A DNA stretch of 64,000 nt, taken from the IMG/VR virus record IMGVR_UViG_3300020050_015720; one strand, 5' to 3'. Position numbers and translations under genes: made by a program. Within the stretch, counting starts at the first letter, position 1; every line of letters begins with the position of its first letter. The notes beneath the pieces are model-generated. The model was not told the origin of the DNA, ran no database searches, and saw only the letters and a list, made by a program, of their open reading frames with translations. Positions 21,783 through 39,658 of the stretch are shown here, piece after piece. Source of the DNA: a virus. Lineage: Duplodnaviria > Heunggongvirae > Uroviricota > Caudoviricetes.

Positions 21783-24700
21783 ATTGTAAAATAATTGTAA
21801 ACGAAAAAGAATTCTCTGTAGAGGAATTTAGGGCGTTTGTTTTCGAGAATGGATTAGGGGGCTTAAGTACTGAGCCCCTTTCTCCTCTTGCTGAAACACT
21901 AATAGAACGGTATGATCCATACGCTCAAGAACCTTCTTTATCAGAAGTTTGGGCTGCTCTTGAAAGCCAAAAAAATAACAAAGAAGTTAGGGCTTTTCAA
22001 AGTCAAGAAGAAGTTGATGCCGCTTTAACAGCACAAGGACAATTAACAGACTTCAGTGCTCAAGAACAGATAAGATATAATACCTATTCTGGTATCTCTC
22101 TTACTGGTATTGCGGCCAACTTTGGTAAGATGTTTTCATATCTTCTAAGTACAACTCCAATAGAATCTGTAATTGGTCCTGATAACTTTGTCTATATGGC
22201 AGGCAGTACCGAATTAAATAAGGTTTTAGTAGCAAATAAAGCAGCTACTATAGAAGGCCTAATACAAAAAAATATTGGGTTCAGGATTCAAAAACGAGAA
22301 GCTGTTAGACTAAAAGATATCTTTAAGACCACCGTAAATGGAACAACTATATCTGGATTTTCCAGACTTGATGAAAAACAGAAGAATGTATTTGAAACCA
22401 TAGATACAATAATCAACTTGGCTATTGACAACGTTAAGATGCAAAAACTGCACATATTAGGTATTACTAATAATAATGCTAATTTGTTCTTAACATTTCT
22501 TGGATTTGGCTTTCCGTTGAATACTGTTTCTAGAATATTTAAAACTCCAGCAGTAACTGCCCTAAGTGAGGGTGGGCGTTGGACTTCAGAGAAATTAAGA
22601 AAAGAACTCGTTAAGCTTACGGATGAGCTTATAAAAGATGATAATTGGCAAAACCGCCTTTATGAATTATACCCTGAGCAAGCGGATAAGCTCATAGGAG
22701 CCGTTCAGAAACAGAAGGGCATAAGCATGGCTTTCGGTCGATTATCGATTGAAACCTCAACACTTGATTCCATATACATAGGTAAAACAAGAGGAATCGA
22801 TAGACTTATTTCAGATCTAGTTGTACTTTCAAACCTAAGGAAACTTATCCCAGTAGGAGAAGAATTGTTTACTCATAGCCAGGTGTATAGTTCTTTGCGA
22901 GGATTACCAAACAAACGTTGGAAAGTAGATTCTGTAATAGGAAAGATTGAAAGATATACCAAGTTCGCAGATGAAAGTAACAGGGGTGCTGAACTACAAA
23001 AGGTACTTGTGGAAACACTAGCAGAAACCTTTAGGGAATCAGCAGAATATAAGGCTGCTCTTGAAGAATCAGAGGAAACAGCTGAAAAGCTACTTAAAGA
23101 GAGACTAGATAAGTATAAGGAAAATCCAGATCTATCAGATTTCTATTTTGCTCAGATCAGGGCCACTTTTGTAAACAAAATTCTTAGGAGAAGTTTATCA
23201 AGAAAGATAAAGCCTTCTGATAATTCTGCCTTTGAAAATTCTACACCTCTTAGGCTTCCACACGTGTTAGCCGCTTATAGAGCACTACTTCTTTACAAGA
23301 AGATCTTAGAAAACAGTTTCTTTGTCTATAATCCGATAGTGCAAGGATTTATAAATCGTTTTCTAAATGAGACTAATATATTCACACCGTTCGATCAACT
23401 AGAGAAGACAGATGAGGTTTCAAAAGAATTAATCAAATATCTTAGTGCTGATTTAGACTTTGATGTAAATGGTGTCCCATTCTCCACAAGCGTTCCATCT
23501 GATACTGTTTATCACACAGATAAAAAATCTTATTATGGGAAAGAAGCTTGGGGACAAAAGTTTATTTCTTCAGCCGGTAAGGTCCTGAGTATTGACTCTA
23601 GCAATGAGTTCTTAAATGCCCTAGAGATTATAACAAATAGAGATAAAGTTACAAAACTTCAAATCGTAGCAGACAAGGTAAGTGATGAGGAGATGCTAGA
23701 ACTTATAAGGGAAGACTTTGAAAAGCTTATACATAATAAAGAGGTAATACCAGGAACAGAAACATCTTGGGCTGATTTTGCTCGTGATCTATTTAAATAT
23801 TCGCTTATAAGCGACGGGATGTATTTTGAACGCACTGGATTATCACTTGTATTCCCTGCCGAATGGTCTATTGGTTATTCAAATGCTCAGGACGCAAGAC
23901 TAGAAGCAGTCATACCTAAAGACGATGCTAGAAGTGGTATTAATCTATCTCTTCTAAAAGATGCCTTTACATTTCAAATGCTTCGATCTAGACCCGATTT
24001 GGTTAGGCGCAATGATACTGCTCCAATGACTATTGCAAATGTAAAGATGTCATGGGGAAATAAGAAGATATTCCATGGAACTGCAAATTACGCCGACAAG
24101 AAGATACACTTTGACTTAAAATTTAATGTTCCTTTCTCAGATAATTCTCCTAGATTTATCCGTTTATATGGTAATGAAGTCTACATGTTAAAAAACACTC
24201 CTGGAAGTGAGTACACATACTATGTGCAACTAACAGAGCCAGGGGGTTCTCCTCACTATAGATTTTCTATAAATGATATAGATACTGCCTTTAGTTTGGA
24301 TAAATTAGAGTTTAATGGAAGAATAGTAAATAGATCTAATATACAAGGTAGCACTTTGACCGAAGCTATCGATGGTTACATTCTTGAAAAAGGAGATACA
24401 GTAGCCGCTTTTAATAGGCAAGACGCATCCGGCACAGAATTAACTATCTATGAAGTTACGCACGCAAGGCAGACCGATACTGAATACAGGTACACACTCC
24501 GATTTAAATCGAAGGTTCCATTAACAAAAACCGAGGTAGCTCCAGCTATCAGAAGTCTGGCTGGATCTTTCACATCAAGTAGAACTGGAACAACCGTTGT
24601 TGTAGATAAGATAAAGGAAATAAGGGAGAAGGCACTAAAACGGAATAATGTAATAGTCTCAACTTCAGAAATAGAAGAGGGTATAGTACTACCACTATCC

Positions 24701-25222
24701 CACATTACGAAGGATTCAACTCCTGAAGAAGTTCAAGCTGCGGTAAATAAGTCTATAACGTTATTAAATGAAATTCCTTCTAGTGCTAATGTTTACGTAG
24801 AAAAAGAATTACTAGAACCTCTAACTACTTGGCCTAATGCAAGAAGAGCTCTTGCTAGGCTTGTTTACAAAAAGACAGGTTTTTCTGATAGATACCTACC
24901 AGCAACATTGAATCACGACACTAGATTTAGTGAAGCTCAAAGAAGAGTTGAGTTGAATATACCAAGAGCTCTTGGTAGTGTGGAGGTAACATTCAACGAG
25001 GAAACAAAAGAACATACCATTCCTAGTCTTAGGGAATTTTCGGACGTAGAAGTAGGCCAAGTGGTGTATCTAAAAGAGAACACTTATGGCTACATAACAG
25101 ATGTTTCATCTCAAACCTTCTCTGTTTTAATGTTTGATTCAAAGACATTTTCAGCAATAGAAGATGGAAAATTAACCATGGAAGAATTCACTGAAGCTTA
25201 TAAAAAAATAAATAACTGCTAA
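21776..25222 (+). CDS. hypothetical virion-associated protein (1148 aa)
   Basis: Intact ORF with TAA stop. Confidence 0.75.
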   Translation: MLDCKIIVNEKEFSVEEFRAFVFENGLGGLSTEPLSPLAETLIERYDPYAQEPSLSEVWAALESQKNNKEVRAFQSQEEVDAALTAQGQLTDFSAQEQIRYNTYSGISLTGIAANFGKMFSYLLSTTPIESVIGPDNFVYMAGSTELNKVLVANKAATIEGLIQKNIGFRIQKREAVRLKDIFKTTVNGTTISGFSRLDEKQKNVFETIDTIINLAIDNVKMQKLHILGITNNNANLFLTFLGFGFPLNTVSRIFKTPAVTALSEGGRWTSEKLRKELVKLTDELIKDDNWQNRLYELYPEQADKLIGAVQKQKGISMAFGRLSIETSTLDSIYIGKTRGIDRLISDLVVLSNLRKLIPVGEELFTHSQVYSSLRGLPNKRWKVDSVIGKIERYTKFADESNRGAELQKVLVETLAETFRESAEYKAALEESEETAEKLLKERLDKYKENPDLSDFYFAQIRATFVNKILRRSLSRKIKPSDNSAFENSTPLRLPHVLAAYRALLLYKKILENSFFVYNPIVQGFINRFLNETNIFTPFDQLEKTDEVSKELIKYLSADLDFDVNGVPFSTSVPSDTVYHTDKKSYYGKEAWGQKFISSAGKVLSIDSSNEFLNALEIITNRDKVTKLQIVADKVSDEEMLELIREDFEKLIHNKEVIPGTETSWADFARDLFKYSLISDGMYFERTGLSLVFPAEWSIGYSNAQDARLEAVIPKDDARSGINLSLLKDAFTFQMLRSRPDLVRRNDTAPMTIANVKMSWGNKKIFHGTANYADKKIHFDLKFNVPFSDNSPRFIRLYGNEVYMLKNTPGSEYTYYVQLTEPGGSPHYRFSINDIDTAFSLDKLEFNGRIVNRSNIQGSTLTEAIDGYILEKGDTVAAFNRQDASGTELTIYEVTHARQTDTEYRYTLRFKSKVPLTKTEVAPAIRSLAGSFTSSRTGTTVVVDKIKEIREKALKRNNVIVSTSEIEEGIVLPLSHITKDSTPEEVQAAVNKSITLLNEIPSSANVYVEKELLEPLTTWPNARRALARLVYKKTGFSDRYLPATLNHDTRFSEAQRRVELNIPRALGSVEVTFNEETKEHTIPSLREFSDVEVGQVVYLKENTYGYITDVSSQTFSVLMFDSKTFSAIEDGKLTMEEFTEAYKKINNC

Positions 25223-25410
25223 TGATTTGTCCAAATAAAAATAGTGCGGAATGAAAAGAACTAGTAGCAAAATATGGAGAAGATCTAGCGCTAATTAAAT
25301 TTCATCAACAGCCCACCGAAATAGTCTCCCCCATAAGAGATAAAATTGCAAATGAGGTTGGAAGAGATCTTGAATATTATACTAAAAAGTATACTGACTA
25401 TTTAGGTGAT

Positions 25411-28400
25411 GTGGCAGATTTCTCTGGTGTTGTAGATCTTTTTGCGGCCAGATTTGACGGCTTAGATGCTAAGATAGATGGAGACATCGTACGCACGTCT
25501 AGTGGTACAATGGCTTTATTTCCTCCAACAAAAGAAGAGATAATTGCTACAACCGCCTTTTCCACTGGGTACACAAAAGAAGATCTAGAGAACGTACTTG
25601 TTAATTTATCAAAGAAGTTTGGATTTCCTTTTGAAACTATAAATGCCCCAGCGATAAAATGGAAAGGTAAATTCGTTCAGAGAAACGGTCAAATGTTAGT
25701 AATGGTAAACACTGCCCATGCTACAAAGGATACGCCTTTTCACGAATATTATCACCCCTTTGTAAATCTTTTGAGATTACAGAAGCCAGAAACATTTAAG
25801 GTTATATTAGATTCGGCTAATTCAAGAGATACTTCAAATCCTGAAGAAGTTGTTACAGATTATCTTGCTAGACTAGCAGTAAAGAACCCAACTTCTTTTT
25901 ATCTCAGTTATTTTCTACAATTTGTTAGAGATCTTCTTGGATTAAAAAATTCTTTAACTGCTTATTCAACCGTAGCGGATTTAAGGGGAAGAGCCCCAAT
26001 AGATGTAAGTGCTAGCGAACTTCCAGAGGCTTATCAGAGATTAGATGAAGTGGCTGATATGATGAAGAAGAAGTTTCCTGGGCAAGCTTCAGAAACACCT
26101 GACTACATTGCGGAACTATTAAAAGAATCAGCTAAGTATTCAACATCTGACACTAGTTCTTTTTACCAAGATGAGAGTGGTACTGATATTGCTAAACGTC
26201 TCACTGCCTTTATAGGCGACAAGTTATTTGGAGAATTCTCTAAGAAAGCAAGACGGTTCATGGATACTCCGGCTGAAGGGGCAGCTAAGAATTTCTATAA
26301 ACAGCGCGGAATAAACATTGATAAAATTGCTCCTAAAGATGTAACCCAATCTATAACTATCGGAGGAAATACCTATTCGTTTACAGAGATTGTTGCAGGA
26401 TTTGAAGAACGTTTTAAAGGAGCTAGATTAATTGGTAAATTAGTTCACGCATATATCTATTACAGACTGGAAGATAATGCGACCGAGAAGGCTAAAATTA
26501 AGCAACTTGCTGTTGGATATGCTCAAGAATTAGGTGAACCTTATACTACACTAGAAGCTCATCCACGCCTAAGTAAGATCCACGATAATTTTCAAAACAT
26601 ATTGGACGCTTCTGGTGTTATGATAGATACTACAGGTACAAAGGGCATTCCAAGATCTAAGCAGGACAAAGCTGCTCCAGAGATTGGTTTGGTATCAAAG
26701 TATCTAACTGATGCAGATGGAAATAAGTTGGGAACCACAGCGGATGGATTATTTGTCCATCAAAATGGAGATGTTACACTTCTTGACTGGAAAACCGGTA
26801 ATCTTACTAGTGATATGAGCACACCATATCTTATGGATTATGGTGATAAGTATGGTATAAATGATTCTAAATTATCAAAGGGTTATTTGGAACTAACCTA
26901 CCGTGCTATCATGTTAAAGGAAAAATTTCCTAACATGAAGTTTAGATCTATAAAGCTCGTGAAGGTAGACTACAAGGGGAAAGCAACTATAATGGAGCTA
27001 GACATCCAGCCGTATTTGTACACTATAGGAGACTACTACAAGCAAACTAATCCGGAGATTTATAACAAGTTAAAGGAAGCTAAGTTGTTAGAGGCGTCTT
27101 CCTATAAGGGTGAGGCTACCAGTATAATTGAGCTTCAGGATAGTATTTCTCATTTATCCACAAAGGAGAAACACCTTTATTTAAAAGAGAAATTAGGCAT
27201 CTTGCATGAGGGGAAGACAAAATCTGAAATTCAGAGTGATCCTAATATTAGAGTGCTGTCAAAGAAATATAGTGACGCCATACTCGAGCTAGAAAAGGAC
27301 GCCGCAACAGATCTGAACAGTAAATCAGAGGATCTCTCGTCTTTCTGGCAATTTAAGAACTTTTCAGATATTTCTAATCCAAAAGTCCAGACACTTCATA
27401 AGATAATTATGGATGCTAAGGCAAAGACACAGAAATATCTATTAGGAATAGAATCAGAACATGATAAGCTGTACCAAGCTGCCCTTAATAAAGAAGACCA
27501 AAGTTTACTCAAGAAGATACTTCTTGGTGGAGCAGCTGTTGCTAATGTGTATGGACTTTTCACATTTTCTCCACTATGGTTTGTCGGTAGTATTATTTCC
27601 CATAAGCTCTTATCAAGAGCCATGAACACCACAACAAAGAATCACTTTGCATTTATGTGGAGAGAATCTTCCGACTTAGAGCGTGGTGGGTACTATCTAA
27701 ATTTGCAGGATACTTATTTGAAAGATGGTGTAGAAGTGCCGCTTACACAGGCTCAAAAAAATTATAGGAGTTTTGTGTATTCTACTATGAAAAATGAGTA
27801 TGATAACTTTGCAAATACAGTAGTAGGATATAAGTTTGATAATCCATCGGTTCCATTATTCAGATATGAAAAGTTGGGCATACCTCAAACATTACCAGAA
27901 GATTTCCTGCCTAGGATACCAAAGCCTTTGGCTGAACTTCGTGAAGAAGAGGCTTTCTATGCTGGCGGTTTTGGATTTAAAACTGTTGTAGGACAGAGCG
28001 TAAAAAGAAACCTAACTAATTTCTTGGAGGATGCTTACACAAAAGAATCAGATGGTCTACCTCTGAAGTATTTTAAACATAGCGGGTCCTCTATAGTCAG
28101 TGATGTAAACCATAGTTGGAATGTTGATGCTTCTTTTAAGTATTTCATGGCTTCTTTGAAGGCGAAGGAGAGTTTGGATCCGGTATACGATATTGCGATG
28201 GGCGTCTATAATGGTCTTCAAGAAGATAAGGACGAGGCAGGAAAACCTCGTTATGATCGACTGGTAAAATGGTTAGATTCTCAAATTACTTTACAGGTTC
28301 TAGGGGATACAACTAAGGATAGTGTTTCTGCTAAAAAGATTACTCTAAAGGCTAATAAACTTACAGAAAAACTCACGGACATCCCCGAAGGGACGCCCAT

Positions 28401-29745
28401 AGTAGTGTCTCAGGATAGAATACTCCGAGCACTAAAGACTTCTGTAACATACTCTGTGCTTTCTTTTAAAGTGTGGTCTCCTATTCGTAACGCAGTTATG
28501 ATTGCAGCAGCCAATACTACGCAATCAACTAGGGGACTTGTTAACAAACTTATGTCCAACATCTTAGGAGTTCCACCAGAGTCATTTGAAACCATCAATA
28601 TAGATGGGGGAAGAGTAGCCTTAAGAGATTACATGAAAGCAAAGCTTTTAGGACAAGAAGATGACTCAAAACTCTGGAACATAGCAAAGAACTTTGATTG
28701 GTTGCCAGACAATTATCCATTTGAAGTAAACGATGATAGACTAGTTCACCAAATATCAAAGCTAAATGGTACAACTAACGCCTTCTTGTTCTACCAAGTT
28801 GGTGAAACATTTGGTGCTCTTTGGCAGCTAGCTGGGTTAATGAAGTCTATTAAAGTAAAAGATGCTTCAGGTAAAGAAGTCACATTGTGGGATGCCTACG
28901 ATAACAAAGGTAATTGGACCATAGGAGAACGAGGACAAGTCCTTCAAGCTGATGGTAGCTATGCTTCCCTAAAGGAATTAACTTCACTTGAAGTTAAGTC
29001 TCTAAAAAGAGCCTATGAGAAACTGAATGGTTCTTATCGTAAAGAAGAAAAGACAGCAATAGAAGTAAGCGTACTTGGTGATTTTGTTATGCAGTTTCAC
29101 AAGTATTTTTACCAGTACCTAAAGGTTTTATTTGCTGCTCCATACAAAGACATCACTGTGGGTAAGTATGTACTGACGGGCCAAAAACCTGATGGTATGC
29201 CTGTCTATCAATGGCACTCTGAAGTTATGGAAGGTCAATTACGTGTTCTTGTAGCTTCTATCTTTGCAGCTCTATCTGGAAAAGGTAAACAGTATCTAAC
29301 GGAAGAGAATCTTGGAGAAAATACATTGAAAGGGCACAGAGCTAGAGCTTTAGCTGGACTTTTGAATACATTTGGATGGTTTACGCTACTACTAGTACTA
29401 TTCAAGGTTGGATTAGACGACGATGAAGAAAAGTCTTATGTTGGCAGGTCTATAAAAAGAACTATTTTAGATTTAACTCGTGGAGCTCATTTAACTGATC
29501 TTGTAGATACAGCTTTAAAGCCAATTGTGGCCATTGACAAAATGGGTAAGACATCTATTGCTCTGTTTGACTTAATGGCTTCACCAGTTACTGGGAACAC
29601 TGATAGAGACGGTTGGCCCCAAGGCTTAAAGACAGTTGCTAGAGCAGTGCCATTTACTGCCGGATCACTACAGATAGCAGACGTTCTTTCTAAGGATGCT
29701 GAAGACAGTGAATATTTATTTGGGATAATACCCGTGCGCCCATAG
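25411..29745 (+). CDS. hypothetical large virion protein (1444 aa) with a C-terminal hydrophobic segment
   Basis: The ORF begins with GTG at 25411 (first ATG is at about 25507). TAG stop at 29743-29745. The segment LLNTFGWFTLLLVLFKV is hydrophobic. This is the last gene of the plus block. Confidence 0.7.
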   Translation: MADFSGVVDLFAARFDGLDAKIDGDIVRTSSGTMALFPPTKEEIIATTAFSTGYTKEDLENVLVNLSKKFGFPFETINAPAIKWKGKFVQRNGQMLVMVNTAHATKDTPFHEYYHPFVNLLRLQKPETFKVILDSANSRDTSNPEEVVTDYLARLAVKNPTSFYLSYFLQFVRDLLGLKNSLTAYSTVADLRGRAPIDVSASELPEAYQRLDEVADMMKKKFPGQASETPDYIAELLKESAKYSTSDTSSFYQDESGTDIAKRLTAFIGDKLFGEFSKKARRFMDTPAEGAAKNFYKQRGINIDKIAPKDVTQSITIGGNTYSFTEIVAGFEERFKGARLIGKLVHAYIYYRLEDNATEKAKIKQLAVGYAQELGEPYTTLEAHPRLSKIHDNFQNILDASGVMIDTTGTKGIPRSKQDKAAPEIGLVSKYLTDADGNKLGTTADGLFVHQNGDVTLLDWKTGNLTSDMSTPYLMDYGDKYGINDSKLSKGYLELTYRAIMLKEKFPNMKFRSIKLVKVDYKGKATIMELDIQPYLYTIGDYYKQTNPEIYNKLKEAKLLEASSYKGEATSIIELQDSISHLSTKEKHLYLKEKLGILHEGKTKSEIQSDPNIRVLSKKYSDAILELEKDAATDLNSKSEDLSSFWQFKNFSDISNPKVQTLHKIIMDAKAKTQKYLLGIESEHDKLYQAALNKEDQSLLKKILLGGAAVANVYGLFTFSPLWFVGSIISHKLLSRAMNTTTKNHFAFMWRESSDLERGGYYLNLQDTYLKDGVEVPLTQAQKNYRSFVYSTMKNEYDNFANTVVGYKFDNPSVPLFRYEKLGIPQTLPEDFLPRIPKPLAELREEEAFYAGGFGFKTVVGQSVKRNLTNFLEDAYTKESDGLPLKYFKHSGSSIVSDVNHSWNVDASFKYFMASLKAKESLDPVYDIAMGVYNGLQEDKDEAGKPRYDRLVKWLDSQITLQVLGDTTKDSVSAKKITLKANKLTEKLTDIPEGTPIVVSQDRILRALKTSVTYSVLSFKVWSPIRNAVMIAAANTTQSTRGLVNKLMSNILGVPPESFETINIDGGRVALRDYMKAKLLGQEDDSKLWNIAKNFDWLPDNYPFEVNDDRLVHQISKLNGTTNAFLFYQVGETFGALWQLAGLMKSIKVKDASGKEVTLWDAYDNKGNWTIGERGQVLQADGSYASLKELTSLEVKSLKRAYEKLNGSYRKEEKTAIEVSVLGDFVMQFHKYFYQYLKVLFAAPYKDITVGKYVLTGQKPDGMPVYQWHSEVMEGQLRVLVASIFAALSGKGKQYLTEENLGENTLKGHRARALAGLLNTFGWFTLLLVLFKVGLDDDEEKSYVGRSIKRTILDLTRGAHLTDLVDTALKPIVAIDKMGKTSIALFDLMASPVTGNTDRDGWPQGLKTVARAVPFTAGSLQIADVLSKDAEDSEYLFGIIPVRP

Positions 29746-29762
29746 ACGCGCAGAAAAAGTTA

Positions 29763-29800
29763 GGCCCCTTCCCACCATAACGGTGAGGAGGGGCTTTTTT
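29763..29800. terminator. imperfect hairpin with flanking A/T tracts between the convergent gene blocks, possibly a bidirectional intrinsic terminator
   Basis: The sequence aaaaag ggccccttcccacc ataac ggtgaggaggggc tttttt. The stem is GC-rich and imperfect (~10 of 13 positions pair), and A/T tracts lie on both sides. Confidence 0.6.
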
Positions 29801-30528
29801 CATTCTTCATATTTTTTGCACGCTTCTTTTAGTGAGAAGTTGTGGATGGCCTCTTGAATCTCCTTTTGATTGTAGAAAGCGGTTCCTTTTAATCGTACGA
29901 ACAATGTGTCGGCATATTCTGCCTCTGCATTCGCTTCAAGCGTGGCCAGTGTAGGTCCAAACTGCCTCACTATTTTTTCTTCAGTTATACATAGCGCGCG
30001 ATTTCGAAAATCTTGCAGGCAATCTGGGTGGATTTGGTTTACAATGTGACAATGAAAAGGTCCATCGATGTCACAGAGAGCAAGAGCCTCAAAGAGCTCC
30101 TCCATCTGTTTTAATGAAAGCTTAAAAGTTTTGGAGGATACTTTTTCAAATGTAACGATTAATTGTGTTACACCACACACATCGGGTAACTCTGTGATAT
30201 TTGAGACTACGAGATTTTGAGATAGACGGTACCTGATTGATTGAGATTTCCAATAAGTATATACGTCTTTTCCATATTGGACAGAGGCACCTAGCAAATT
30301 GGCAATTTCTTCAGGCCCAACAAAAATTGTTGTGTACAGGTCGTCATATACTGGTAGTGCTTCAAGGGGCTCGTCAGCTGGTAACACTTCTTCATATATC
30401 GGGTGCACCTCTTCAGGATATTCTGTAACTGGTGTTTTTTCAGGGACTACAGGGGATGCCCCATCAATAATTTTATCAATAGCAGCGTGACTGGTTGTGG
30501 TGTCAAAATCAATAGGATAATGTGGCAT
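29800..30528 (-). CDS. hypothetical protein (242 aa, acidic)
   Basis: ORF ending in TGA that abuts the terminator. If TGA is read through it would extend 28 codons into the hairpin, up to TAA at 29716. Confidence 0.5.
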   Translation of the reverse strand: MPHYPIDFDTTTSHAAIDKIIDGASPVVPEKTPVTEYPEEVHPIYEEVLPADEPLEALPVYDDLYTTIFVGPEEIANLLGASVQYGKDVYTYWKSQSIRYRLSQNLVVSNITELPDVCGVTQLIVTFEKVSSKTFKLSLKQMEELFEALALCDIDGPFHCHIVNQIHPDCLQDFRNRALCITEEKIVRQFGPTLATLEANAEAEYADTLFVRLKGTAFYNQKEIQEAIHNFSLKEACKKYEE

Positions 30529-31083
30529 GAATTAGTTATTTAAAAGTGAAAAAAATACCTCCCCCATTACACTTTTGTAACGAGAGAGGTTGGGAAAGAA
30601 TATTTCGACCTTAGTTCTTTAAGAGAGGTTCCTAACTCTTTTGCTAAGAATACCTCTCAATTCTGGATTAGTTGCTATGGTACCTAATATTATAACTTTG
30701 GAGGATTAAAACGGCCAAATTCAAGCCAGTATAAAATCTCTGATCGAAAGATTAGCAAGCAAAGCAATATGGTAGCTCCAATAAATCCAAAGACCTTTAG
30801 GGTAGTGAAATGAAAAGCTACCAAAACGAGTACCAGACAAAAAAGTAGGAGAATTAGTCCTCTTGAAAAGACTCTAAGCATAGTAATGTGTGTTTGCGAT
30901 TGATATGCTGGATAGAAACCTTTACTGGAGTTATGACCAAGATCACGTAAAGAAATAAAGCCGAATCTCTATCTAATAATTCAACCGTGGGTGAATGAAA
31001 ATGTGTTAAAAAATGTTGAATAAATTTAGGAGCGTCTTCTGGATTTCCTAATTTGAGGTTTGTGAGTAAGTCCGTTACAAGAT

Positions 31084-32941: not shown

Positions 32942-33400
32942 CTATCTTGTAGATTTGTTATGGGAGTTTTTAGATAATAAGTAAAGATCTACATTTATAG
33001 ACGCAAGGTCATCCGCTGTTAAAGTTTCGGGTTTCCATGTTGACATCTTTTGCTTCATCTTTTCAAGGATAATAGCCTTATTATCAGCATCTACAGCTGT
33101 TGATTTTTTGTGGTCCTCATAATAAGTGTAGGCCTGGGTTAGAAATCTTCCGAAGGACGGTGAAGAATGAGCAATTGCTCTACGAATAACTTCGCGTCTT
33201 CCCAACGTCTTTTCTTCCTCGATTCTTGTGAGGTCTGTTTCTGTAATACCTAGGACCTTTAAAGCCTCTTCCCTTTGAGATTGGGTTTGGCTAATTAGCG
33301 CTCAGCGCTCAGGACTGAAGAAACGCTGAAGTATCCCTATATATTTTGCTCCTTCGCTATAAAGAGACCTTAGCACTTCTTTGTTTTGTTTCTGGTACAT
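32942..33400 (-). CDS. hypothetical protein (about 152 aa) with one in-frame TGA (33302-33304)
   Basis: ORFs 33302..33499 and 32942..33205 are in the same frame and separated only by TGA. The likely ATG is at 33398-33400. TAG stop. Confidence 0.45.
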
Positions 33401-33911
33401 AACCGTATAATTCATTTCTGGCAAATGGTTTCGAATACACTTCTGCATCTTCAGGGAGAGAGACACCCTTTTTCTCCCACTCTTGTCGCCAAAGCTCACT
33501 CTTATCGAAAATTAACCGATTCCCGTAGAGTGAGTGACTAGGATCTGCTGGGAAGTATTTGTTCACCACTTTTCTATCCGCTTCTGAATACTTACCTTCC
33601 AAAATTTTAAAGGTGTATCCCTCTTTAACCTCCTTCGGTAACCGAAATACGAAGATACGTTTGGCCTTCTGCGGCTCGTACATCTCCACAAAGCTAGGGT
33701 GGCTCTGAAAGTATTCGGTTAGGGTTTGCGGAATTGTTTCGTTGTATTCGAGCAGAATAAAATCTCCGCTCTTTCAGTTCTTGTATTCCTCTCTATGACT
33801 GTCTCCAGAGTATGTGCTAAGGTAATATGCCGGATCATACATGTTTATTGGCGCCTTTTGCTTTAGCCCTAAGACAGGAGTGAGGAATAATGCTGTTATA
33901 GTGTGTTTCAT
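33357..33911 (-). CDS. secreted protein with signal peptide (about 184 aa), one in-frame TGA (33774-33776)
   Basis: Reading upstream of ORF 33357..33689 through the TGA gives an N-terminus MKHTITALFLTPVLGL, which is signal-peptide-like. TAG stop. Confidence 0.5.
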
Positions 33912-33912
33912 G

Positions 33913-34938
33913 CTAATTAGCAAAGACCTTTAGTGGTATTTGCCCATTATTTTCGTGAATTTCTTTTGGATATACCCATAGGTCATTTTTACTGTACCAT
34001 AGGTAATCATCTAACAATTGATATATTCCTTTGTAGTATTTTCCATCGACGAAACCACCCTCTAATCCACAATTTCTTTCATGCTGAGTGGTTGTATATA
34101 TTAATGCAGGACTTGTGGATGATGTCTTTGTTTCTGCAACAATGAATACAAAATCCTTTATAATGTAACCCTCATCAATATACTGAAGAACAGGACTCTC
34201 TTTTGTCCTTATAGCAAGATCGTAAAGAGCTGCTTGAGTGTAGTAACCAAAAGTTAAGTAACTTTGTGGAAAGTCATAAACAGATTTTCCAGTTGTCTTT
34301 AAGTCAAATGGTTCTATTGTCCTGTTTTTATGGTTTAGTCTTATCCCGTCAAGCAAGGCCTTGAATTCCTGGCCTTCAAGTTCAAAATAGATAGGAACCT
34401 GATGTAATAGTTCCTCTGTTATTCCGGATTTTACAAAATAAGGCTTTGCAAAAGGAGAGGCCAGTATTAACTCTGTCGCTTTAATTGCGGCCTCGTGCTC
34501 GTCTTTTGAGAGCACTGTTATATCCTTAGGATCAGACTGAGTGTAGTAGTACTCAACAGCGTCTGGTGTACTTCAAAACTTTTTTATCACCCAATCTCTA
34601 GACATTTTATATCCAGATGCCCAATAAGCCATCTCATAATCCTCGGCCGGAGAGTCCACTTGTATCCCCTTTGGTAAAGCTTCCACAAAACTTCCCATGA
34701 ATCCATAGGGCTTGTTTATAGTGAGGACCTTGAAACGTTTCTCCCAAGAGGTAGGATCGGTAAGTAAACAGTCAACGGCTGAACCTATTCTCAGTGCTGG
34801 GCTGTTTCACTCATATAGTTCTGGATTATCCCTTTTTAATTTTGCTGCTCTTGGATTTTGAAGGCTTTTTAGCAGACTGTTGGAAATCCTTGGTGATTTG
34901 TAATATTCTTCTATAGGATCTTTGATCTCGTTTTCCAT
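33913..34938 (-). CDS. PD-(D/E)XK family exonuclease (RecB/Cas4-like fold, QxxxY motif), about 341 aa, two in-frame TGA (34573-34575 and 34807-34809)
   Basis: ORF 33913..34515 continues in-frame upstream to an ATG at 34936-34938 if TGA is translated. Motifs: an N-terminal ISNSLLKSL segment, DLK and GYYTQAALY (QxxxY). Confidence 0.7.
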
Positions 34939-34972
34939 TTAATCATTCTTTTATAATTTCCACACAAACAGC

Positions 34973-35311
34973 TACTTGAGCTTGATTGCCAGGCATTAGG
35001 AGTATTATTTTCTTGTTTCTATATAAATACTTAAAGAGCTTTCATCTCAAATCAAAGTCAGGTCTTCTTAGTCCTTTCGTTTCTATTACTCAATCCTCAC
35101 CCATAAAGTCTGGGCTGTATATGATGTTCTTGTAGGATGATTTCTTTTCAACAAGGCCTTTTTTTGTTTTTTCAATGTTTAGACCTTTGAAAAGGAAAGC
35201 AGGCACTAATTCGATCGCTCTTTCGTAATCAAACTGAATACCTGCCTCCTCTAATAGCACTCAACAATATTTTTCAAGGTCATTTCTGCCCTTCTGATTA
35301 TTTTTTTCCAT
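34973..35311 (-). CDS. small PD-(D/E)XK nuclease-like protein (about 112 aa) with three in-frame TGA (35042, 35090, 35261)
   Basis: This region has no standard-code ORF. Read with TGA as sense it forms a single frame: MEKNNQKGRNDLEKYC*VLLEEAGIQFDYERAIELVPAFLFKGLNIEKTKKGLVEKKSSYKNIITAPDFMGED*VIETKGLRRPDFDLR*KLFKYLYENKKIILLMPGNQAQ (* = TGA). It carries a PD...(E)xK-like core. TAG stop at 34973. Confidence 0.5.
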
Positions 35312-36026
35312 TCAATGCTTTGTTTAGCATGTCTGCATAGCCCCTTATAGCAATAATGTCGCTGGGGCGAAGCATGGTTTCAATGTTGGCTATCAGCATT
35401 TCTTCTTTCGGCGTCTGAATCAAGGTCACATGACCATAATCCAATCCAATTTCATCAACACTGTTTTTGGCCATAGCAAAGGCGGCATCCCTGTCCCAAG
35501 CAGACGGAATACTATGTGATAGCACACCATTGGATGTCTGTTTTGTTCCCAGATTTAATGCTCTACCAGCCGCGTTTGGGATAACGTGCACTTGCGCACT
35601 TTGGTATCCCTGTGGAAGCTTCAACAAGGATCCCCCCGGAAGTTCTGCTGCTCCTATAAGAGCCAGAATTTCTGCGTAGTCCCCAATCTCTTTTGCCAAA
35701 GACTCGGCTATTTCCATAATGATGAAATCTTCCAAAGACTCATAGAATTCCTCAAAAGAAGAAAGATCGAACATTCCATCAGTAATGAAGGCTGTTTTTG
35801 GTGCATGATCTGGGACAACGTATCCTTCTGCTGCTAAATGGAGAAGTAGCGCCTCTTTGTCTTGAGTAAGGCGAACACTTGGTGGCGGATTAATGTGGAC
35901 TTTTTGAATGTGCTCTGGAGGAAATCGTGAGTCCTCAAAACAGCCACTTATGTTGTAAGCAGGGTTGAGCATCTGCTGGTTGATGTTCGGGTACTTTGCC
36001 CGTGTTTTCTGATCGAATTTTACCAT
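35298..36026 (-). CDS. hypothetical protein (242 aa), possibly a Rossmann-like nucleotide-processing enzyme
   Basis: Intact ORF with TAA stop. Its ATG overlaps the stop of the uracil-DNA glycosylase gene. No confident family assignment. Confidence 0.55.
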   Translation of the reverse strand: MVKFDQKTRAKYPNINQQMLNPAYNISGCFEDSRFPPEHIQKVHINPPPSVRLTQDKEALLLHLAAEGYVVPDHAPKTAFITDGMFDLSSFEEFYESLEDFIIMEIAESLAKEIGDYAEILALIGAAELPGGSLLKLPQGYQSAQVHVIPNAAGRALNLGTKQTSNGVLSHSIPSAWDRDAAFAMAKNSVDEIGLDYGHVTLIQTPKEEMLIANIETMLRPSDIIAIRGYADMLNKALNGKK

Positions 36027-36721
36027 CGTATTTTATTTTTTAAACTTGAATTAATTATTTCAAAAAACCTCTTGTCCTTGAATAGATGGTAAGAGAAAGG
36101 AGATGGGTGGGCTCCCTTCACTATGACATGGCGTGGATTTATCTTTGGTTCAAAGGCGTGAGCTTTTGTCCCCCAAAGTACCCATACGATCTGGTCACGC
36201 TTATTTAGTACCTTTATGACTTCCTCGGTAAAGGGAGCCCATATAGGCACATGACTCAAGGGTTCCTTGCTTACAACAGTTAATGCTGTGTTTAAAAGGA
36301 GCACCCCCTGTGAAGGAAGGTGCTCCAAATAACTCAACACATTCTCTGTAGCCTGGGTTTCCCCGCAATCCTTCACTATCTCCTTCAGAATATTCCTAAG
36401 AGATGGGGAGGGACGTTTCGTTTTTGAATTGTCGAAAGCTATTCCTGTAGCGGAACCATCGTGGTAAGGATCTTGGCCAATAATAACTACTCTAACGGTA
36501 TTGTATGGGGTCTCTTTGAAAGCCCTGAAAACGTTTGATAGAGTAGAAGGATATATAGTCTGTTTTTTGCTCTCCGGTGATTCCAGGTTACGTATTTCCA
36601 GCCTTTCCTTTTCGGCCTTTAGATAAGGGATGATTTTCTCCTTGAAGTAATCGAAAGCCCCACTTAAAGGTGTTAACCAAGACTCCCCAACAAAATTGGA
36701 GAGATTGTCGTGCTTTGTCAT
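36020..36721 (-). CDS. ung: uracil-DNA glycosylase (family 1)
   Basis: Carries the diagnostic GQDPYH motif (IIGQDPYHDGSATGIAF) and a C-terminal HPSP motif (KGAHPSPFSY). ATG and TAA are intact. Confidence 0.9.
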   Translation of the reverse strand: MTKHDNLSNFVGESWLTPLSGAFDYFKEKIIPYLKAEKERLEIRNLESPESKKQTIYPSTLSNVFRAFKETPYNTVRVVIIGQDPYHDGSATGIAFDNSKTKRPSPSLRNILKEIVKDCGETQATENVLSYLEHLPSQGVLLLNTALTVVSKEPLSHVPIWAPFTEEVIKVLNKRDQIVWVLWGTKAHAFEPKINPRHVIVKGAHPSPFSYHLFKDKRFFEIINSSLKNKIRW

Positions 36722-37099
36722 TTATTGGTAAAGTATCGAATCTACTATGATTCGTTGTGAATAAGGGGTCTCTTCAATTAACATTATGATGGTACTGTCC
36801 GGGCAATCCATCTCATCACAGGTTGTAAAGCACTGTGTTTTAAAGTGTTTCTTCGCTTCTTCTAAGTTCACTGTCTCAATATGGTTTGAAAAACTCATAC
36901 TAATTGAGTCCTTCGCAAATTCTACAATATCTATTCGATATGATTTTGGACTGCTTCTAACCACTTCTTGCAATTCTTCGATGGCTTTGGTTGTTTTCGC
37001 TATTTCAGGTACTAGTGCGGCCACTCCGATAGACAGACCTACGCAGAGGGTAATAATTACCAGGTTCAATTTTTCAAGTCTACTTAAGTTCTTAAGCAT
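36722..37099 (-). CDS. small membrane protein (125 aa)
   Basis: N-terminal hydrophobic segment LVIITLCVGLSIGVAALV. TAA stop. Confidence 0.5.
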   Translation of the reverse strand: MLKNLSRLEKLNLVIITLCVGLSIGVAALVPEIAKTTKAIEELQEVVRSSPKSYRIDIVEFAKDSISMSFSNHIETVNLEEAKKHFKTQCFTTCDEMDCPDSTIIMLIEETPYSQRIIVDSILYQ

Positions 37100-38037
37100 T
37101 TGGATAATAGTTTTTTTATTTTTCTGTTTGTTTGGACAACTCCAAAGTGTTTTTGGTAATCCGAAATATCCTTAAACACTGGATCTAAGTGTATGTTTGG
37201 AAGCTTCAGACGAAGCGATAATTTATTTGCAAACGTCACTCCGGCCGCGTCTCCGTCTAGGAAGATAACGATCTTTTTGAACCGTTTTCTTAGACCCGTT
37301 ATGTACGGAGCAATGGTTTCGTAGGAATCAGAACTAAGACCATACCCTTCCCCGTTTAGGGCCACAGCATTAAAACCATGCTGCTTTAAGACCATTATAT
37401 CCTTTATAGAAGATGTGATAAACAGTAGTTGTCCTCTCTGAGGTAATTGGTACAATCCTCCAATATCTTCCGCTGTGGCATTTCCACCTCATTTCTTTTG
37501 CTTATCAGGGCTGAGTGGTCGGTAAAGTTTTATTCTACCAGAAATGAACTTATAGGCAAAGAGAGGATTTTGTTTACTGCTACGTCCTACAAACGATTCA
37601 TTTTTATAGAGACTCTTTACTATAAAGCAGTATTTTGCTACTATTGTTTTTGGTATTCTGTACCTTTTCCAATAGTGCATACCATCCTCAATATCCCCAG
37701 GAATAAAGGAGAATACAGGTTTCTCGGGTTTATCTTCGACCTCTTGATCTTGGAACAAATGGGCATCCTTTTCAATCTTGGCAATTGCTTCGGAATAAGA
37801 TAGTCCAAATTTTTCTTTAACAAAATCAATTAGCGTATATTTTTTTCCAGTGCCAAAGTCTACAAATAGCGGAGTATTTGAATTTCCAATTCAAAATGAA
37901 CATGTTGGATTCTTGTCTCCTCTTAGCGGATTCTTATAATGTCGACCAAAGACTATTTCTGAATTCAAATAATACCCAAAAGCACCTAGGACACTAATCC
38001 TTTGAAGTATGTTCGTGTGTTCCTTTGCCTTTAGCAT
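37084..38037 (-). CDS. DNA primase (CHC2-like zinc-binding region plus Toprim domain), about 317 aa, two in-frame TGA (37489-37491 and 37891-37893)
   Basis: ORFs 37084..37455 and 37489..37758, plus the upstream region to an ATG at 38035, lie in one frame separated only by TGA. Motifs: KNPLRGDKNPTCSF*IGNSN (zinc-finger-like) and the Toprim motif VIFLDGDAAG. TAA stop. Confidence 0.7.
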
Positions 38038-38377
38038 CTCTATGAATTGTGACTTTTGTGATTGTTTTCGCCTTGTAAACTTCGATTAAATAGCATTCAA
38101 TCTGACTATGTGCATCGAGCCTAAAGGTTTTATTGAAAGCTACGTGTTGACGACTTACGTAACACCGCTCATTTTTTTCGTTGATAAAATCAGCTGAAAA
38201 TTCAGCAACCATAACCTCTTCTAGGAGATCAGGTGAAGAAGCAAGTACTGCCTGCAATTTGGCAAGATGCTTGAAATAGTATTCTAGTGTTAACATAAGA
38301 TAAATAAAAAAAGGGGTAGCAGATTGTAGCCTACTACCCCTAGATTTTAGCTCTGTAAAAACCTCATTTCTACCCAA
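37994..38377 (-). CDS. hypothetical protein (127 aa)
   Basis: Intact ORF with TAG stop. Overlaps the primase start. Confidence 0.45.
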   Translation of the reverse strand: MGRNEVFTELKSRGSRLQSATPFFIYLMLTLEYYFKHLAKLQAVLASSPDLLEEVMVAEFSADFINEKNERCYVSRQHVAFNKTFRLDAHSQIECYLIEVYKAKTITKVTIHRDAKGKGTHEHTSKD

Positions 38378-38414
38378 CCACGCCTAACGGTGGTAATTGT
38401 GATTAGTGAGCTAC

Positions 38415-39005
38415 TTAGACCAATGACTCTAAGTCCTCTGAAGAGGCACTGCCTGCGGCGTTCGACTTGGCAGCACGCTTCATTTCCATTTCGGAGATTG
38501 CCGCATTATCATCCTTTGATAACTTTAGGCCTGTTTCACTCCCTGGGTTGTGCCGCTCTACATACCTTGAGTAAGGCAACTCGGGATACATTTTCTCCTT
38601 ATAGTCTGGAATTACTTTCAGATTAACAGGTACATTTTTATGTGCACCTAAAAGAAGAGCTGCTTTCGCAACAAACTCCTTATAATCTGTAGCCTCGAAG
38701 GTCTCGACGATCTCTGGTCCGAGAAATACTAGCATCAAATCAGTGATTTGACCTAGGTTACGTTTTTGCTCCCTGTTATATGCGTCCTGAATAGTTTCGC
38801 CATCCTTCGGCTTACTACCAGTAGGCATGAACAGCCTTTTGTGGATTGCTCTCCCAGTGGTTGGCTCGGAGAACAGGATATCTGTCCAAGTTTGATCTGT
38901 GACAAGGCCACTGAAAACTACGGTTCCTTCGTGAATTCCTACTGGAATCTTTGTGCCACCTGTGCCGTTGTCACTGTTCAAAAATAGTTTTGCTTGTAAA
39001 CTCAT
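38415..39005 (-). CDS. hypothetical protein (196 aa) with an acidic C-terminal tail, possibly DNA-binding
   Basis: Intact ORF with TAA stop. C-terminus ends ...SASSEDLESLV. No confident family assignment. Confidence 0.5.
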   Translation of the reverse strand: MSLQAKLFLNSDNGTGGTKIPVGIHEGTVVFSGLVTDQTWTDILFSEPTTGRAIHKRLFMPTGSKPKDGETIQDAYNREQKRNLGQITDLMLVFLGPEIVETFEATDYKEFVAKAALLLGAHKNVPVNLKVIPDYKEKMYPELPYSRYVERHNPGSETGLKLSKDDNAAISEMEMKRAAKSNAAGSASSEDLESLV

Positions 39006-39010
39006 TTCGT

Positions 39011-39358: not shown

Positions 39359-39658
39359 TATTCCCCATATTTCTATGGGGCGTGGATCATATCTTCTTTG
39401 CTAAGATTCTGCGCTTATACTAGTATCTTTTAGTGTGTAAACACAATTGCAAAGTCCTGCCATTTCGGGCTTTAAAAGTCGCCCTACTCCCCTTCGGAGG
39501 GATGATCTCTGAACGTTCCCCTGTTCGGGGCTTCGCTGCTGATTGTCCAATTCTATTATTTTTTAACTTATCAAGCTTGCCTTTATTTCAAAGCTACTTT
39601 GTAGTATAATAAACTCTAAGGATATTCCAGCAATTAGACAGGTACCGGACCTAACCTA

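What the first reader, a model, noticed from the sequence alone, without database searches (positions are those of the whole stretch)
29716..29802. Block-terminal ORFs end at TGA directly followed by hairpins, so TGA may still terminate in some contexts
ORF 29800-30528 and ORF 63725-63940 both end in TGA abutting hairpin-plus-U-tract structures. Read-through would extend them 28 and 16 codons through the stems. polA, the MoxR ATPase, DnaB and 49707-50261 also 'end' at TGA, with 3-45 codon extensions before TAA or TAG. If TGA is fully reassigned these tails are real. If suppression is partial or context-dependent, TGA could act both as a stop and as a sense codon.
Basis: inference. Interest (0 to 1): 0.5.

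Follow-up and report, generated by a model that had tools for sequence, protein, structure and literature searches.

The report
TGA stop-and-sense split by gene block
In this crAss-like phage TGA is an ordinary stop codon in some gene blocks, including almost certainly one and probably the other of the two hairpin-flanked genes, and a tryptophan codon in the DNA-replication block, a known kind of mixed-code phage genome with an unusual distribution.

Summary
The sequence facts hold. Minus-strand ORF 30528-29800 ends in TGA 5 nt before a strong hairpin, and ORF 63940-63725 ends in TGA 26 nt before another. Read-through would add 28 and 16 codons.

The hairpins are ordinary intrinsic terminators. 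The one at 29764-29794 is shared with the convergent late gene. They do not decide how TGA is read. The gene block does.
- Block A (49707-63940 and beyond) and block C (29716-33356) use TGA as a stop. They have seven ATGA stop/start overlaps, no internal TGA, and no gain in coding density under code 4.
- Block B (33357-49710, replication) uses TGA as Trp. It has 23 sense TGAs and coding density rises from 0.79 to 0.92.
- The structural plus-strand block has no TGA at all.

A relative has TAA at exactly the codon where ORF 63940-63725 has TGA, and its tail carries frameshifting indels. For ORF 30528-29800 the evidence is weaker but points the same way.

Of the other genes listed, the polA and DnaB tails are real coding sequence with conserved Trp. 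The MoxR and 49707-50261 TGAs are stops.

Mixed-code crAss-like phages are already known. What is unusual here is that the replication genes are recoded while the structural genes are not, and that no suppressor tRNA was found.

The parts
29803..30528 (-). ORF1, 242 aa. It has no relatives outside this phage lineage and is the last gene of the minus-strand block.
   Evidence: One protein cluster at 90% identity or more among 5.8 billion sequences. No Pfam or PHROG hit.
29800..29802 (-). TGA that ends ORF1, judged to be a functional stop.
   Evidence: Kept in all 12 relatives. Block C has 14 TGG and 0 sense TGA, plus an ATGA stop/start overlap at 31084-31087.
29716..29799 (-). The 27-codon post-TGA tail plus TAA, judged not to be coding.
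   Evidence: It runs through the terminator stem and overlaps the last 8 sense codons and the TAG stop of the convergent gene. All 3 substitutions seen among relatives are non-synonymous in the tail frame and synonymous in the plus-strand gene.
29764..29794 (.). Bidirectional intrinsic terminator hairpin between the convergent blocks.
   Evidence: Folds at -24.1 kcal/mol (minus strand) and -26.3 (plus strand); 0 of 200 shuffles fold as well. Identical in all relatives. T6 on the plus strand, A5 then CTAACTTTTT on the minus strand.
25411..29745 (+). Convergent late gene (1444 aa) ending in TAG 29743-29745, served by the same terminator.
63728..63940 (-). ORF2, 71 aa, a small basic protein of unknown function.
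63725..63727 (-). TGA that ends ORF2, a true stop.
   Evidence: The L031 homolog reads ...CCA AAA AAG TAA at the same codon.
63677..63724 (-). The 15-codon post-TGA tail plus TAG, non-coding.
   Evidence: Two 1-nt indels relative to L031. CAA becomes TAA in L006 and L007. It contains two further in-frame TGAs.
63670..63698 (-). Intrinsic terminator after ORF2.
   Evidence: 13 pairs followed by TTTTT. The 81-nt stretch containing it folds at -21.2 kcal/mol. The stem is kept in relatives through a G.U change.
63970..63995 (-). Terminator-like hairpin about 30 nt upstream of the ORF2 start codon.
   Evidence: -19.9 kcal/mol, z -5.4.
30557..30590 (-). Terminator-like hairpin about 29 nt upstream of the ORF1 start codon.
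   Evidence: -21.7 kcal/mol, z -4.8.
49707..63940 (-). Block A: standard code, TGA is a stop.
   Evidence: 25 genes: 12 TGA stops, 0 internal TGA, 61 TGG, and 6 ATGA overlaps counting the one at 49707-49710. Coding density 0.835 under code 11 and 0.825 under code 4. TGA stops are conserved in L031 while the downstream TAA/TAG is lost in 3 genes.
33357..49710 (-). Block B: the replication module, TGA is Trp.
   Evidence: 23 sense TGAs against about 45 TGG. All stops are TAA or TAG. Coding density rises from 0.792 to 0.924 under code 4. TGA in the window corresponds to TGG in relatives at 34575 and at DnaB codon 288.
49707..49710 (-). ATGA junction at the border of blocks A and B.
   Evidence: The TGA stop of gene 49707-50261 overlaps the ATG of the 98-aa ORF 49414-49710.
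49669..49671 (-). Sense TGA (codon 14 of ORF 49414-49710), 35 nt downstream of the TGA stop at 49707-49709.
   Evidence: The homolog L030 882-1193 (58% identity, E 6e-45) has TGA at the aligned position.
46636..48522 (-). polA, with sense TGAs at 47748-47746 and 46647-46645 among others. Its WKK tail is real.
39979..40977 (-). DnaB-like helicase, with sense TGAs at 40845-40843 and 40116-40114. Its 44-aa tail is real.
57672..58709 (-). bpMoxR-type ATPase, ending at a TGA that overlaps the ATG of the vWA gene 56545-57675.
22..29745 (+). Block D: structural genes with no TGA at all.
   Evidence: 9850 codons, 70 TGG, 0 in-frame TGA, stops only TAA or TAG. The same holds for 16 further structural genes outside the window. 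CrAss_Ring_1 and CrAss_Ring_2 Pfam hits.

Best explanation
The window comes from a crAss-like phage of about 100 kb whose genome is divided into gene blocks that treat TGA differently.

- Block A (49707-63940, continuing beyond the window) and the small distal block C (29716-33356) follow the standard code, so TGA terminates there.
- Block B (33357-49710) holds the replication genes and needs TGA read as Trp.
- The plus-strand structural block D avoids TGA entirely.

Both focal ORFs lie in standard-code blocks. Their TGAs are stops, the tails are untranslated, and the hairpins are Rho-independent terminators. The hairpin at 29764-29794 works in both directions between the convergent blocks.

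Shown: the block pattern, Trp identity, the real polA and DnaB tails, the ATGA overlaps, TAA at the ORF2 codon in a relative, and indels in the ORF2 tail.

Inferred: the blocks are expressed under different decoding states, with an unidentified UGA suppressor acting after block A. Structural genes avoid TGA because decoding is then ambiguous. Block A stops tolerate leakage because many are followed closely by TAA or TAG.
For: Block pattern
- Coding density under code 4 rises only in block B: A 0.835 to 0.825, B 0.792 to 0.924, C 0.767 to 0.760, D 0.993 to 0.999.
- In block A every in-frame TGA lies 1-38 codons from the code-4 end. In block B they are spread through the genes.
- There are seven ATGA stop/start overlaps in the window (57675, 56548, 54858, 51668, 50822, 49710, 31087) and none in blocks B or D, which use TAATG junctions instead.

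TGA is Trp in block B
- DnaB TGA-45 aligns with an invariant W.
- The DnaB tail carries the invariant WHxIKERFG motif.
- TGA in the window corresponds to TGG in relatives at 34575 and at DnaB codon 288.
- The polA alignments run continuously across the TGA.

ORF2
- L031 has TAA at the same codon and two indels in the tail.

Block A stops
- The TGAs are conserved in L031, while the TAA/TAG that would end a code-4 reading is lost in three genes.
- The tails contain 9 further TGAs in 238 codons (3.8%). That is close to the off-frame density of 2.8% and far from the 0.42% seen in block B coding sequence (Poisson P 1e-6).

ORF1
- Block C has 14 TGG and 0 sense TGA. I calculate P = 0.004 for this at block B's usage (0.67 to the 14th power, counts).
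- The three tail substitutions among relatives are all non-synonymous in the tail frame and synonymous in the convergent gene.
- The tail's TAA lies about 36 nt beyond the terminator's T-tract.

Relatives
- L029 and L030 show the same architecture. The terminal gene of L030 ends TAA, then an A-tract, a hairpin and a T-tract.
Against: - For ORF1 every available relative is close. All keep the TGA, the frame and the TAA, so there is no TAA/TAG replacement and no indel test.
- All three ORF1 tail substitutions fall in the 8 codons that overlap the plus-strand gene, whose constraint alone could explain them.
- The ORF1 context (TGAAAAAAG) closely resembles that of a sense TGA in polA, so if a suppressor is active when ORF1 is translated, read-through should occur.
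- No suppressor tRNA was found in about 100 kb of composite genome. The decoding switch is therefore assumed, not shown.
- The expression timing of the blocks is inferred from gene order and content only.
- The TGA stop at 49709 and the sense TGA at 49671 sit 35 nt apart at a translationally coupled junction. That fits simultaneous ambiguous decoding better than a clean temporal switch.
Confidence: 0.78

Rival explanations
1. Ambiguous, partial suppression. A UGA suppressor of moderate efficiency is present whenever these genes are translated, so every TGA is a leaky stop. ORF1 and ORF2 then each yield a major short product and a minor extended one. Ribosomes that read through ORF1 run into the terminator and, on terminated transcripts, reach the 3' end without a stop.
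For: - A TGA stop and a sense TGA lie 35 nt apart at the coupled junction at 49710.
- Structural genes avoid TGA both as stop and as sense codon: 0 of 24 stops and 0 of more than 90 Trp codons. This fits a codon that is costly in either role.
- 6 of 14 TGA stops have TAA or TAG within 3 codons, against 8 of 51 after TAA/TAG stops and a 12% random expectation (binomial P 0.004).
- The phage encodes a tmRNA (76 bits), which could rescue ribosomes stalled on stop-less transcripts.
Against: - The enrichment of backup stops is not significant in the rank test (P 0.10).
- polA has at least two, and up to four, sense TGAs, which would cut its yield sharply under weak suppression.
- No suppressor was identified.
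- Nothing suggests that the extended products have a function.
- This view overlaps with the best explanation rather than excluding it.
Confidence: 0.15
2. TGA is fully reassigned to Trp throughout the genome. All post-TGA tails, including those of ORF1 and ORF2, are real C-terminal extensions, and the terminator stems lie inside coding sequence.
For: - TGA is clearly Trp in the replication genes.
- The ORF1 tail keeps its frame and its TAA in all relatives.
Against: - There are seven ATGA overlaps.
- L031 has TAA at the ORF2 codon and frameshifting indels in the tail.
- The code-4 stop is lost in three block A genes in L031 while the TGA is kept.
- Tail TGA density matches off-frame sequence.
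- Coding density does not rise in blocks A and C.
Confidence: 0.04
3. Structure-dependent decoding. The hairpin just downstream of the TGA decides the outcome, either by favouring release over suppression or, as with a SECIS element or a viral read-through signal, by directing insertion of an amino acid.
For: A stable hairpin begins 5 nt after the ORF1 TGA.
Against: - The ORF2 hairpin is 26 nt away.
- Twelve other TGA stops have no adjacent hairpin.
- The hairpins have the A-tract, stem and T-tract form of terminators and sit at the ends of transcription units, including after TAA in relative L030.
- No SECIS or other cis-regulatory family reached its Rfam threshold in the window.
Confidence: 0.03

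Closest known systems
crAss-like (Crassvirales) phages with block-wise mixed genetic codes: TGA read as Trp, or TAG read as Gln, in part of the genome (Yutin et al. 2021, PMC7886860; Borges et al. 2021 preprint, 10.1101/2021.08.26.457843; Pfennig et al. Mgcod preprint, 10.1101/2022.06.29.495998)
   Same: - The genome is crAss-like.
- In-frame TGA stands for Trp in one block, while another block uses TGA as a stop.
- Some blocks are 'dual-coded', meaning they give nearly the same proteins under either code.
[quoted passage not shown]
   Different: - The published pattern places recoding in late structural and lysis genes, with replication genes standard or variable. Here it is inverted: the replication module is recoded and the 24 structural genes examined contain no TGA at all.
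- The code border between blocks A and B is not at a strand switch. It is inside one strand, at a 4-nt ATGA overlap.
- No suppressor tRNA was found in about 100 kb.
Bidirectional Rho-independent terminators between convergent genes
   Same: A GC-rich stem flanked by an A-tract on one side and a T-tract on the other, placed between two converging stop codons (TAG 29745 and TGA 29800). It is conserved in relatives.
   Different: Nothing unusual. The minus-strand U-tract is interrupted (CUAACUUUUU), so termination is probably weaker in that direction.
Programmed UGA read-through or selenocysteine insertion directed by a downstream structure (bacterial SECIS elements, viral read-through signals)
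   Same: A UGA codon followed within a few nucleotides by a stable stem-loop (site 1 only).
   Different: - The extension is not conserved.
- There is no Rfam SECIS match.
- The structure has terminator features.
- The second site has a different spacing.

Membership tests
Stop-codon-recoded phage with block-specific code (code 4 / code 11) | In-frame TGA inside conserved genes, aligned with Trp in homologs | tested here: met
   DnaB TGA-45 aligns with an invariant W. TGA in the window corresponds to TGG in relatives at 34575 and at DnaB codon 288. polA domains are joined across a TGA.
Stop-codon-recoded phage with block-specific code (code 4 / code 11) | Coding density and ORF length rise under the alternative code in the recoded block only | tested here: met
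   Block B rises from 0.792 to 0.924. Blocks A, C and D are unchanged.
Stop-codon-recoded phage with block-specific code (code 4 / code 11) | Another block in which the same codon works as a stop | tested here: met
   12 of 25 block A genes end in TGA. Block A has 6 ATGA overlaps, counting the junction at 49707-49710, and block C has one more at 31084-31087. L031 has TAA at the ORF2 codon. The TGAs are conserved while the downstream TAA/TAG is lost.
Stop-codon-recoded phage with block-specific code (code 4 / code 11) | Recoding concentrated in late structural and lysis genes (published pattern) | tested here: not met
   24 structural genes have 0 TGA. Recoding is in the replication module plus one candidate cell-wall peptidase gene (48754-49356; this function is my reading of an HxxGxAxD motif, and it has no Pfam or PHROG hit).
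Stop-codon-recoded phage with block-specific code (code 4 / code 11) | Phage-encoded suppressor tRNA with anticodon UCA | tested here: inconclusive
   None was found by ARAGORN or Rfam in the window plus about 39 kb of flanking genome. Only degenerate tRNA-like elements turned up, none with a UCA anticodon. A small stretch of the genome may remain unsampled.
Rho-independent terminator | GC-rich stem-loop followed by a U-tract, downstream of a stop codon | tested here: met
   The plus-strand reading of site 1 and site 2 are canonical. The minus-strand reading of site 1 has a 5-nt spacer before U5.
Rho-independent terminator | Transcripts actually end there | not testable with these tools
   This needs 3'-end mapping of phage transcripts.
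Crassvirales | Signature structural proteins | tested here: met
   Precomputed Pfam hits for CrAss_Ring_1 and CrAss_Ring_2 and Crass_capsid.
SECIS-directed or structure-directed UGA recoding | A conserved structure at fixed spacing, with a conserved downstream coding extension | tested here: not met
   The spacing is 5 nt at one site and 26 nt at the other. The tails are not conserved. No Rfam hit.

The most novel reading that the evidence does not exclude
TGA is truly ambiguous in this phage lineage. It is read as a stop and as Trp on the same polycistronic message: the TGA stop at 49709 and the sense TGA at 49671 are 35 nt apart. The phage achieves this without a canonical suppressor tRNA, for example by weakening host RF2 or by using an unconventional tRNA-like RNA. 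The recoding pattern is inverted, throttling or gating the replication genes rather than the lysis genes. The phage's own tmRNA clears ribosomes that read through TGA stops into terminator-truncated transcripts such as ORF1's.
Probability: 0.2. Interest if true: 0.7.

Novelty: new variant of a known kind. Interest (0 to 1): 0.4.

Why it matters
Annotation: neither a single genetic code nor a per-strand code gives correct genes here.
- polA, DnaB, the primase, the nucleases and several small ORFs must be read with TGA as Trp.
- ORF1, ORF2, MoxR and the rest of blocks A and C must be stopped at TGA.
- The border between the two codes lies inside one strand, at a 4-nt overlap.

Biology: published models tie phage stop-codon recoding to late and lysis genes. 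A lineage represented by the window phage and relatives L029 and L030 instead recodes its replication module and purges TGA from its structural genes. That suggests recoding can gate a different stage of infection. It also offers a test case for how ambiguous decoding shapes codon usage.

Tried and rejected
- A megablast of 20 kb against the phage collection found nothing.
- Scans of viral contigs with ORF1 and with MoxR found no relatives.
- The first metagenome scan found nothing. The second found only one relative at 32% identity.
- A search of solved structures with DnaB did not reach the tail.
- PHROG and Pfam searches gave no function for ORF1, ORF2 or the block C genes.
- The hunt for a suppressor tRNA across about 100 kb, using ARAGORN at default and relaxed settings with and without introns, and Rfam, gave no UCA anticodon.
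- The Bacteroidota -7 promoter motif TAnnTTTG occurs at the chance rate on the minus strand, so it did not mark the block borders.
- The base after TGA differs only weakly between sense and stop TGAs (A12 G6 C1 T1 against A8 T5 G1).
- Selenocysteine was rejected: no SECIS hit, and the TGA/TGG swaps point to Trp.
- A code-25 reading (Gly) was rejected on the invariant Trp at DnaB codon 45.
- A host that uses code 4 was rejected because TGA clearly terminates genes in block A.
Full report
**What is there**

The window holds two convergent gene blocks. Eight very large plus-strand ORFs occupy 22-29745. A long run of minus-strand genes occupies 29716-64000. Precomputed Pfam hits on the plus-strand genes (CrAss_Ring_1, CrAss_Ring_2, and Crass_capsid further upstream) identify a crAss-like phage. 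Near-identical contigs of 88-102 kb exist in several JGI metagenomes.

- ORF 30528..29803 ends at TGA 29802-29800. Five A's follow, then a 13-pair hairpin at 29794-29764, then CTAACTTTTT. TAA follows 27 sense codons after the TGA, 28 added codons counting the TGA.
- ORF 63940..63728 ends at TGA 63727-63725. The in-frame continuation is LKN-TGA-RWSCLEALSQ-TGA-TAG. Its hairpin at 63698-63670 is followed by T5.

Three points need correcting.
- ORF 63940-63725 is not block-terminal. The same-strand block continues about 6 kb beyond the window (L002).
- Its hairpin starts 26 nt after the TGA.
- The site 1 hairpin is a bidirectional terminator. Its perfect U-tract serves the plus-strand gene that ends at TAG 29745.

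**TGA is a Trp codon in the replication genes**

polA:
- Read with TGA as sense, polA (46636-48522) becomes one protein. The Pfam exonuclease domain covers residues 31-192 and the polymerase domain covers 254-620. The polymerase match and the alignment to Taq polymerase both run straight across TGA-259.
- TGA-626 lies three codons from the end. From my own knowledge of the family, it sits where Pol I enzymes have a conserved Trp.
- It is kept as TGA at the same place in relative L030, whose DnaB is about 60% identical.

DnaB (39979-40977):
- Dozens of homologs of 320-340 residues cover 98-100% of the TGA-as-Trp translation.
- In a 17-sequence alignment, TGA-45 falls on an invariant Trp (GIDW) and TGA-288 falls on W, L or Y.
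- The 44 residues after TGA-288 include the invariant W-H-x-I-K-E-R-F-G.

Direct swaps: window TGA 34575 is TGG in three relatives. DnaB codon 288 is W in the 83%-identical P0016.

So the polA and DnaB tails are real, and the amino acid is Trp rather than Gly or Sec.

**TGA is a stop elsewhere, and the split follows gene blocks**

I listed every in-frame TGA within TAA/TAG-delimited ORFs.
- From 49707 to 63940 (block A), every TGA lies 1-38 codons from the end.
- From 33357 to 49710 (block B), TGAs are scattered through the genes.

Coding density under code 4 compared with code 11 rises only in block B:

| Block | Code 11 | Code 4 |
|---|---|---|
| A | 0.835 | 0.825 |
| B | 0.792 | 0.924 |
| C (29716-33356) | 0.767 | 0.760 |
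| D (plus strand) | 0.993 | 0.999 |

Seven TGA stops overlap the next gene's ATG as ATGA, at 57675, 56548, 54858, 51668, 50822, 49710 and 31087. Blocks B and D never do this and use TAATG junctions instead.

In the roughly 90%-identical lineage L031, every block A TGA stop is conserved. The TAA or TAG that would end a code-4 reading is lost in three genes: 61788 TAA to TTA, 59956 TAG to TGG, and 54743 TAA to TGA.

The 14 post-TGA tails together hold 9 further TGAs in 238 codons, or 3.8%. That is close to the off-frame density of 2.8% and far from the 0.42% seen in block B coding sequence (Poisson P 1e-6).

Block D has 9850 codons with 70 TGG, no in-frame TGA and no TGA stop. The same holds for 16 more structural genes outside the window.

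Relatives L029 and L030, about 60% identical in DnaB, repeat the architecture.

**The two focal ORFs**

ORF2 (63940-63725) lies in block A.
- In L031 its homolog ends ...GGT GGT CCA AAA AAG TAA, exactly where the window has TGA.
- L031 also carries an extra 83-aa gene. That gene's 3' end is the homolog of the window's post-TGA region and differs from it by two 1-nt indels.
- In L006 and L007 the tail codon CAA is TAA.

ORF1 (30528-29800) lies in block C.
- Block C has 14 TGG and no sense TGA. I calculate P = 0.004 for this at block B's one-third TGA usage.
- Two of its seven genes end in TGA, one of them through an ATGA overlap.
- ORF1 has no homologs beyond one cluster at 90% identity or more. 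All 12 relatives keep the TGA, the hairpin and the TAA.
- The only three substitutions in the tail are non-synonymous in the tail frame and synonymous in the convergent gene. They all fall in the 8 overlapping codons, so this is weak support.
- The tail's TAA lies about 36 nt beyond the T-tract. A transcript terminated there has no in-frame stop other than the TGA (sequence).
- In L030 the analogous terminal gene, which is not homologous, ends TAA, then an A-tract, a hairpin and a T-tract.

I put the TGA-is-a-stop reading at about 95% for ORF2 and about 75-80% for ORF1.

**The other listed genes**

- MoxR (57672-58709; bpMoxR and AAA_5 domains) ends at a TGA that overlaps the ATG of a vWA-domain gene. 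It is a stop.
- Gene 49707-50261 ends at a TGA that overlaps the ATG of a 98-aa ORF (49414-49710). Its homolog in L030 ends in TAG one base before the next ATG. It is a stop.
- That 98-aa ORF has a TGA at codon 14, conserved as TGA in its 58%-identical L030 homolog (E 6e-45). A TGA stop and a sense TGA therefore lie 35 nt apart at what looks like a translationally coupled junction.

**How it most likely works**

This section is inference. Blocks A and C give essentially the same proteins under either code. Block B needs UGA suppression. Block D is neutral to the code.

The simplest model has a UGA-decoding activity appear after block A is expressed. Structural genes avoid TGA because it is then costly both as a stop and as a sense codon.

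Six of 14 TGA stops have TAA or TAG within three codons, against 8 of 51 after TAA/TAG stops (binomial P 0.004 against a 12% null; rank test P 0.10). This hints at selection for backup stops.

Local context does not separate stop from sense. The fourth base is A12 G6 C1 T1 for sense TGAs and A8 T5 G1 for stop TGAs. The ORF1 context closely resembles a polA sense context. The hairpins therefore play no evident decoding role.

**What is missing**

No tRNA was found in the window or in about 39 kb of flanking genome, which together make up nearly the whole genome. Relaxed searches gave only degenerate tRNA-like elements, none with a UCA anticodon. How UGA is decoded is unknown.

**Comparison with the literature**

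Mixed-code crAss-like genomes, dual-coded blocks and imperfect agreement with suppressor tRNAs are all described (PMC7886860; 10.1101/2022.06.29.495998). Those papers and Borges et al. place recoding in late structural and lysis genes, with replication genes standard or variable. Here the distribution is inverted, and one code border lies within a strand.

The finding is therefore an instance of a known phenomenon with an unusual layout. The hairpin-context hypothesis itself is not supported.

Noticed in passing
L024 13119-13380 (+), same phage genome outside the window; also L025 6668-6929, L026 5084-5344, L033 4475-4735, L034 3753-4013: The phage encodes a tmRNA (Rfam RF00023, 76 bits against a threshold of 47, E 1e-28). 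The acceptor stem has a G3.U pair. ARAGORN predicts an unusually long tag, DNSYEPALMAPKNSTRFVPQEVELEVVSAVYA. It may matter for rescuing ribosomes that read through TGA stops.
   Followed up: partly
L024 about 13380-13946: The last 25 nt or so of the tmRNA (AAGGGTTCGACTCCCTTCATCTCCA) are duplicated about 540 nt downstream. The intervening ORF has four in-frame TGAs and no TGG, and is followed by an HNH-domain gene. The HNH gene is called in L024, L025, L026 and L034, and is not called in L033. This looks like a mobile element inserted into the tmRNA 3' end.
   Followed up: partly
window 39363-39691 (-): A group I intron (Rfam RF00028, 64.4 bits against a threshold of 50) splits an AAA_24-like gene (39011-39976). 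The gene is intact (219 aa) in relative L030.
   Followed up: partly
L024 3683-3739 (-), upstream part of block A beyond the window end: A borderline Pistol self-cleaving ribozyme hit (35.6 bits against a threshold of 34.5) in an intergenic gap.
   Followed up: no
window 58723-58788 (-); L024 7245-7407 (+); L024 16246-16352 (+): Three degenerate tRNA-like elements.
- A 66-nt element with a UAU anticodon loop lies between the glucosaminidase and MoxR genes.
- A tRNA-Ile(GAU)-like gene has an insert of about 83 nt (Rfam tRNA score 29 bits for its 3' part).
- A 107-nt element has an 8-bp acceptor stem, a T-arm and a long extra arm (weak tmRNA-like hit, 22.5 bits).
None has a UCA anticodon.
   Followed up: partly
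window 22-29745 (+), plus L008 2052-10020 and L033 10913-19504: 24 structural genes, covering more than 15,000 codons, contain no TGA either as a stop or as a sense codon. Every Trp is TGG.
   Followed up: yes
window 63970-63995 and 30557-30590 (-); also 32834-32865: Strong terminator-like hairpins with T-tracts sit 29-30 nt upstream of the start codons of ORF2, ORF1 and ORF 32488-32805. These small genes are therefore bracketed by hairpins on both sides. The role of the upstream hairpins, whether terminators of the preceding unit or 5'-leader structures, is unknown.
   Followed up: no
L031 4400-4651, compared with window 63646-63727: An 83-aa, probably membrane-associated gene is present in the L031 lineage and absent from the window. 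The junction lies at the AAAAAG-T(A/G)A motif, so the window's ORF2 appears to have taken over the stop codon and terminator of the missing gene.
   Followed up: partly
window 5268-7604 (+): This gene is 778 aa in the window, 660 aa in L008 and L010, and 917 aa in L009, although the flanking genes are about 99% identical. It is a hypervariable structural gene, perhaps a host-recognition protein.
   Followed up: no
L025 11319-12923 (+): The phage encodes a Cpn60/GroEL-like chaperonin (534 aa), just upstream of the packaging and capsid genes.
   Followed up: no
L024 about 7200 and about 11005; window 49935, 51140 and 42158 (-): The octamer TATCTTTG, which fits the Bacteroidota -7 promoter motif TAnnTTTG, precedes transcription units in the divergent region. 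It also occurs inside gene 49707-50261, 225 nt upstream of the border between blocks A and B. It may mark a promoter for the recoded block.
   Followed up: no
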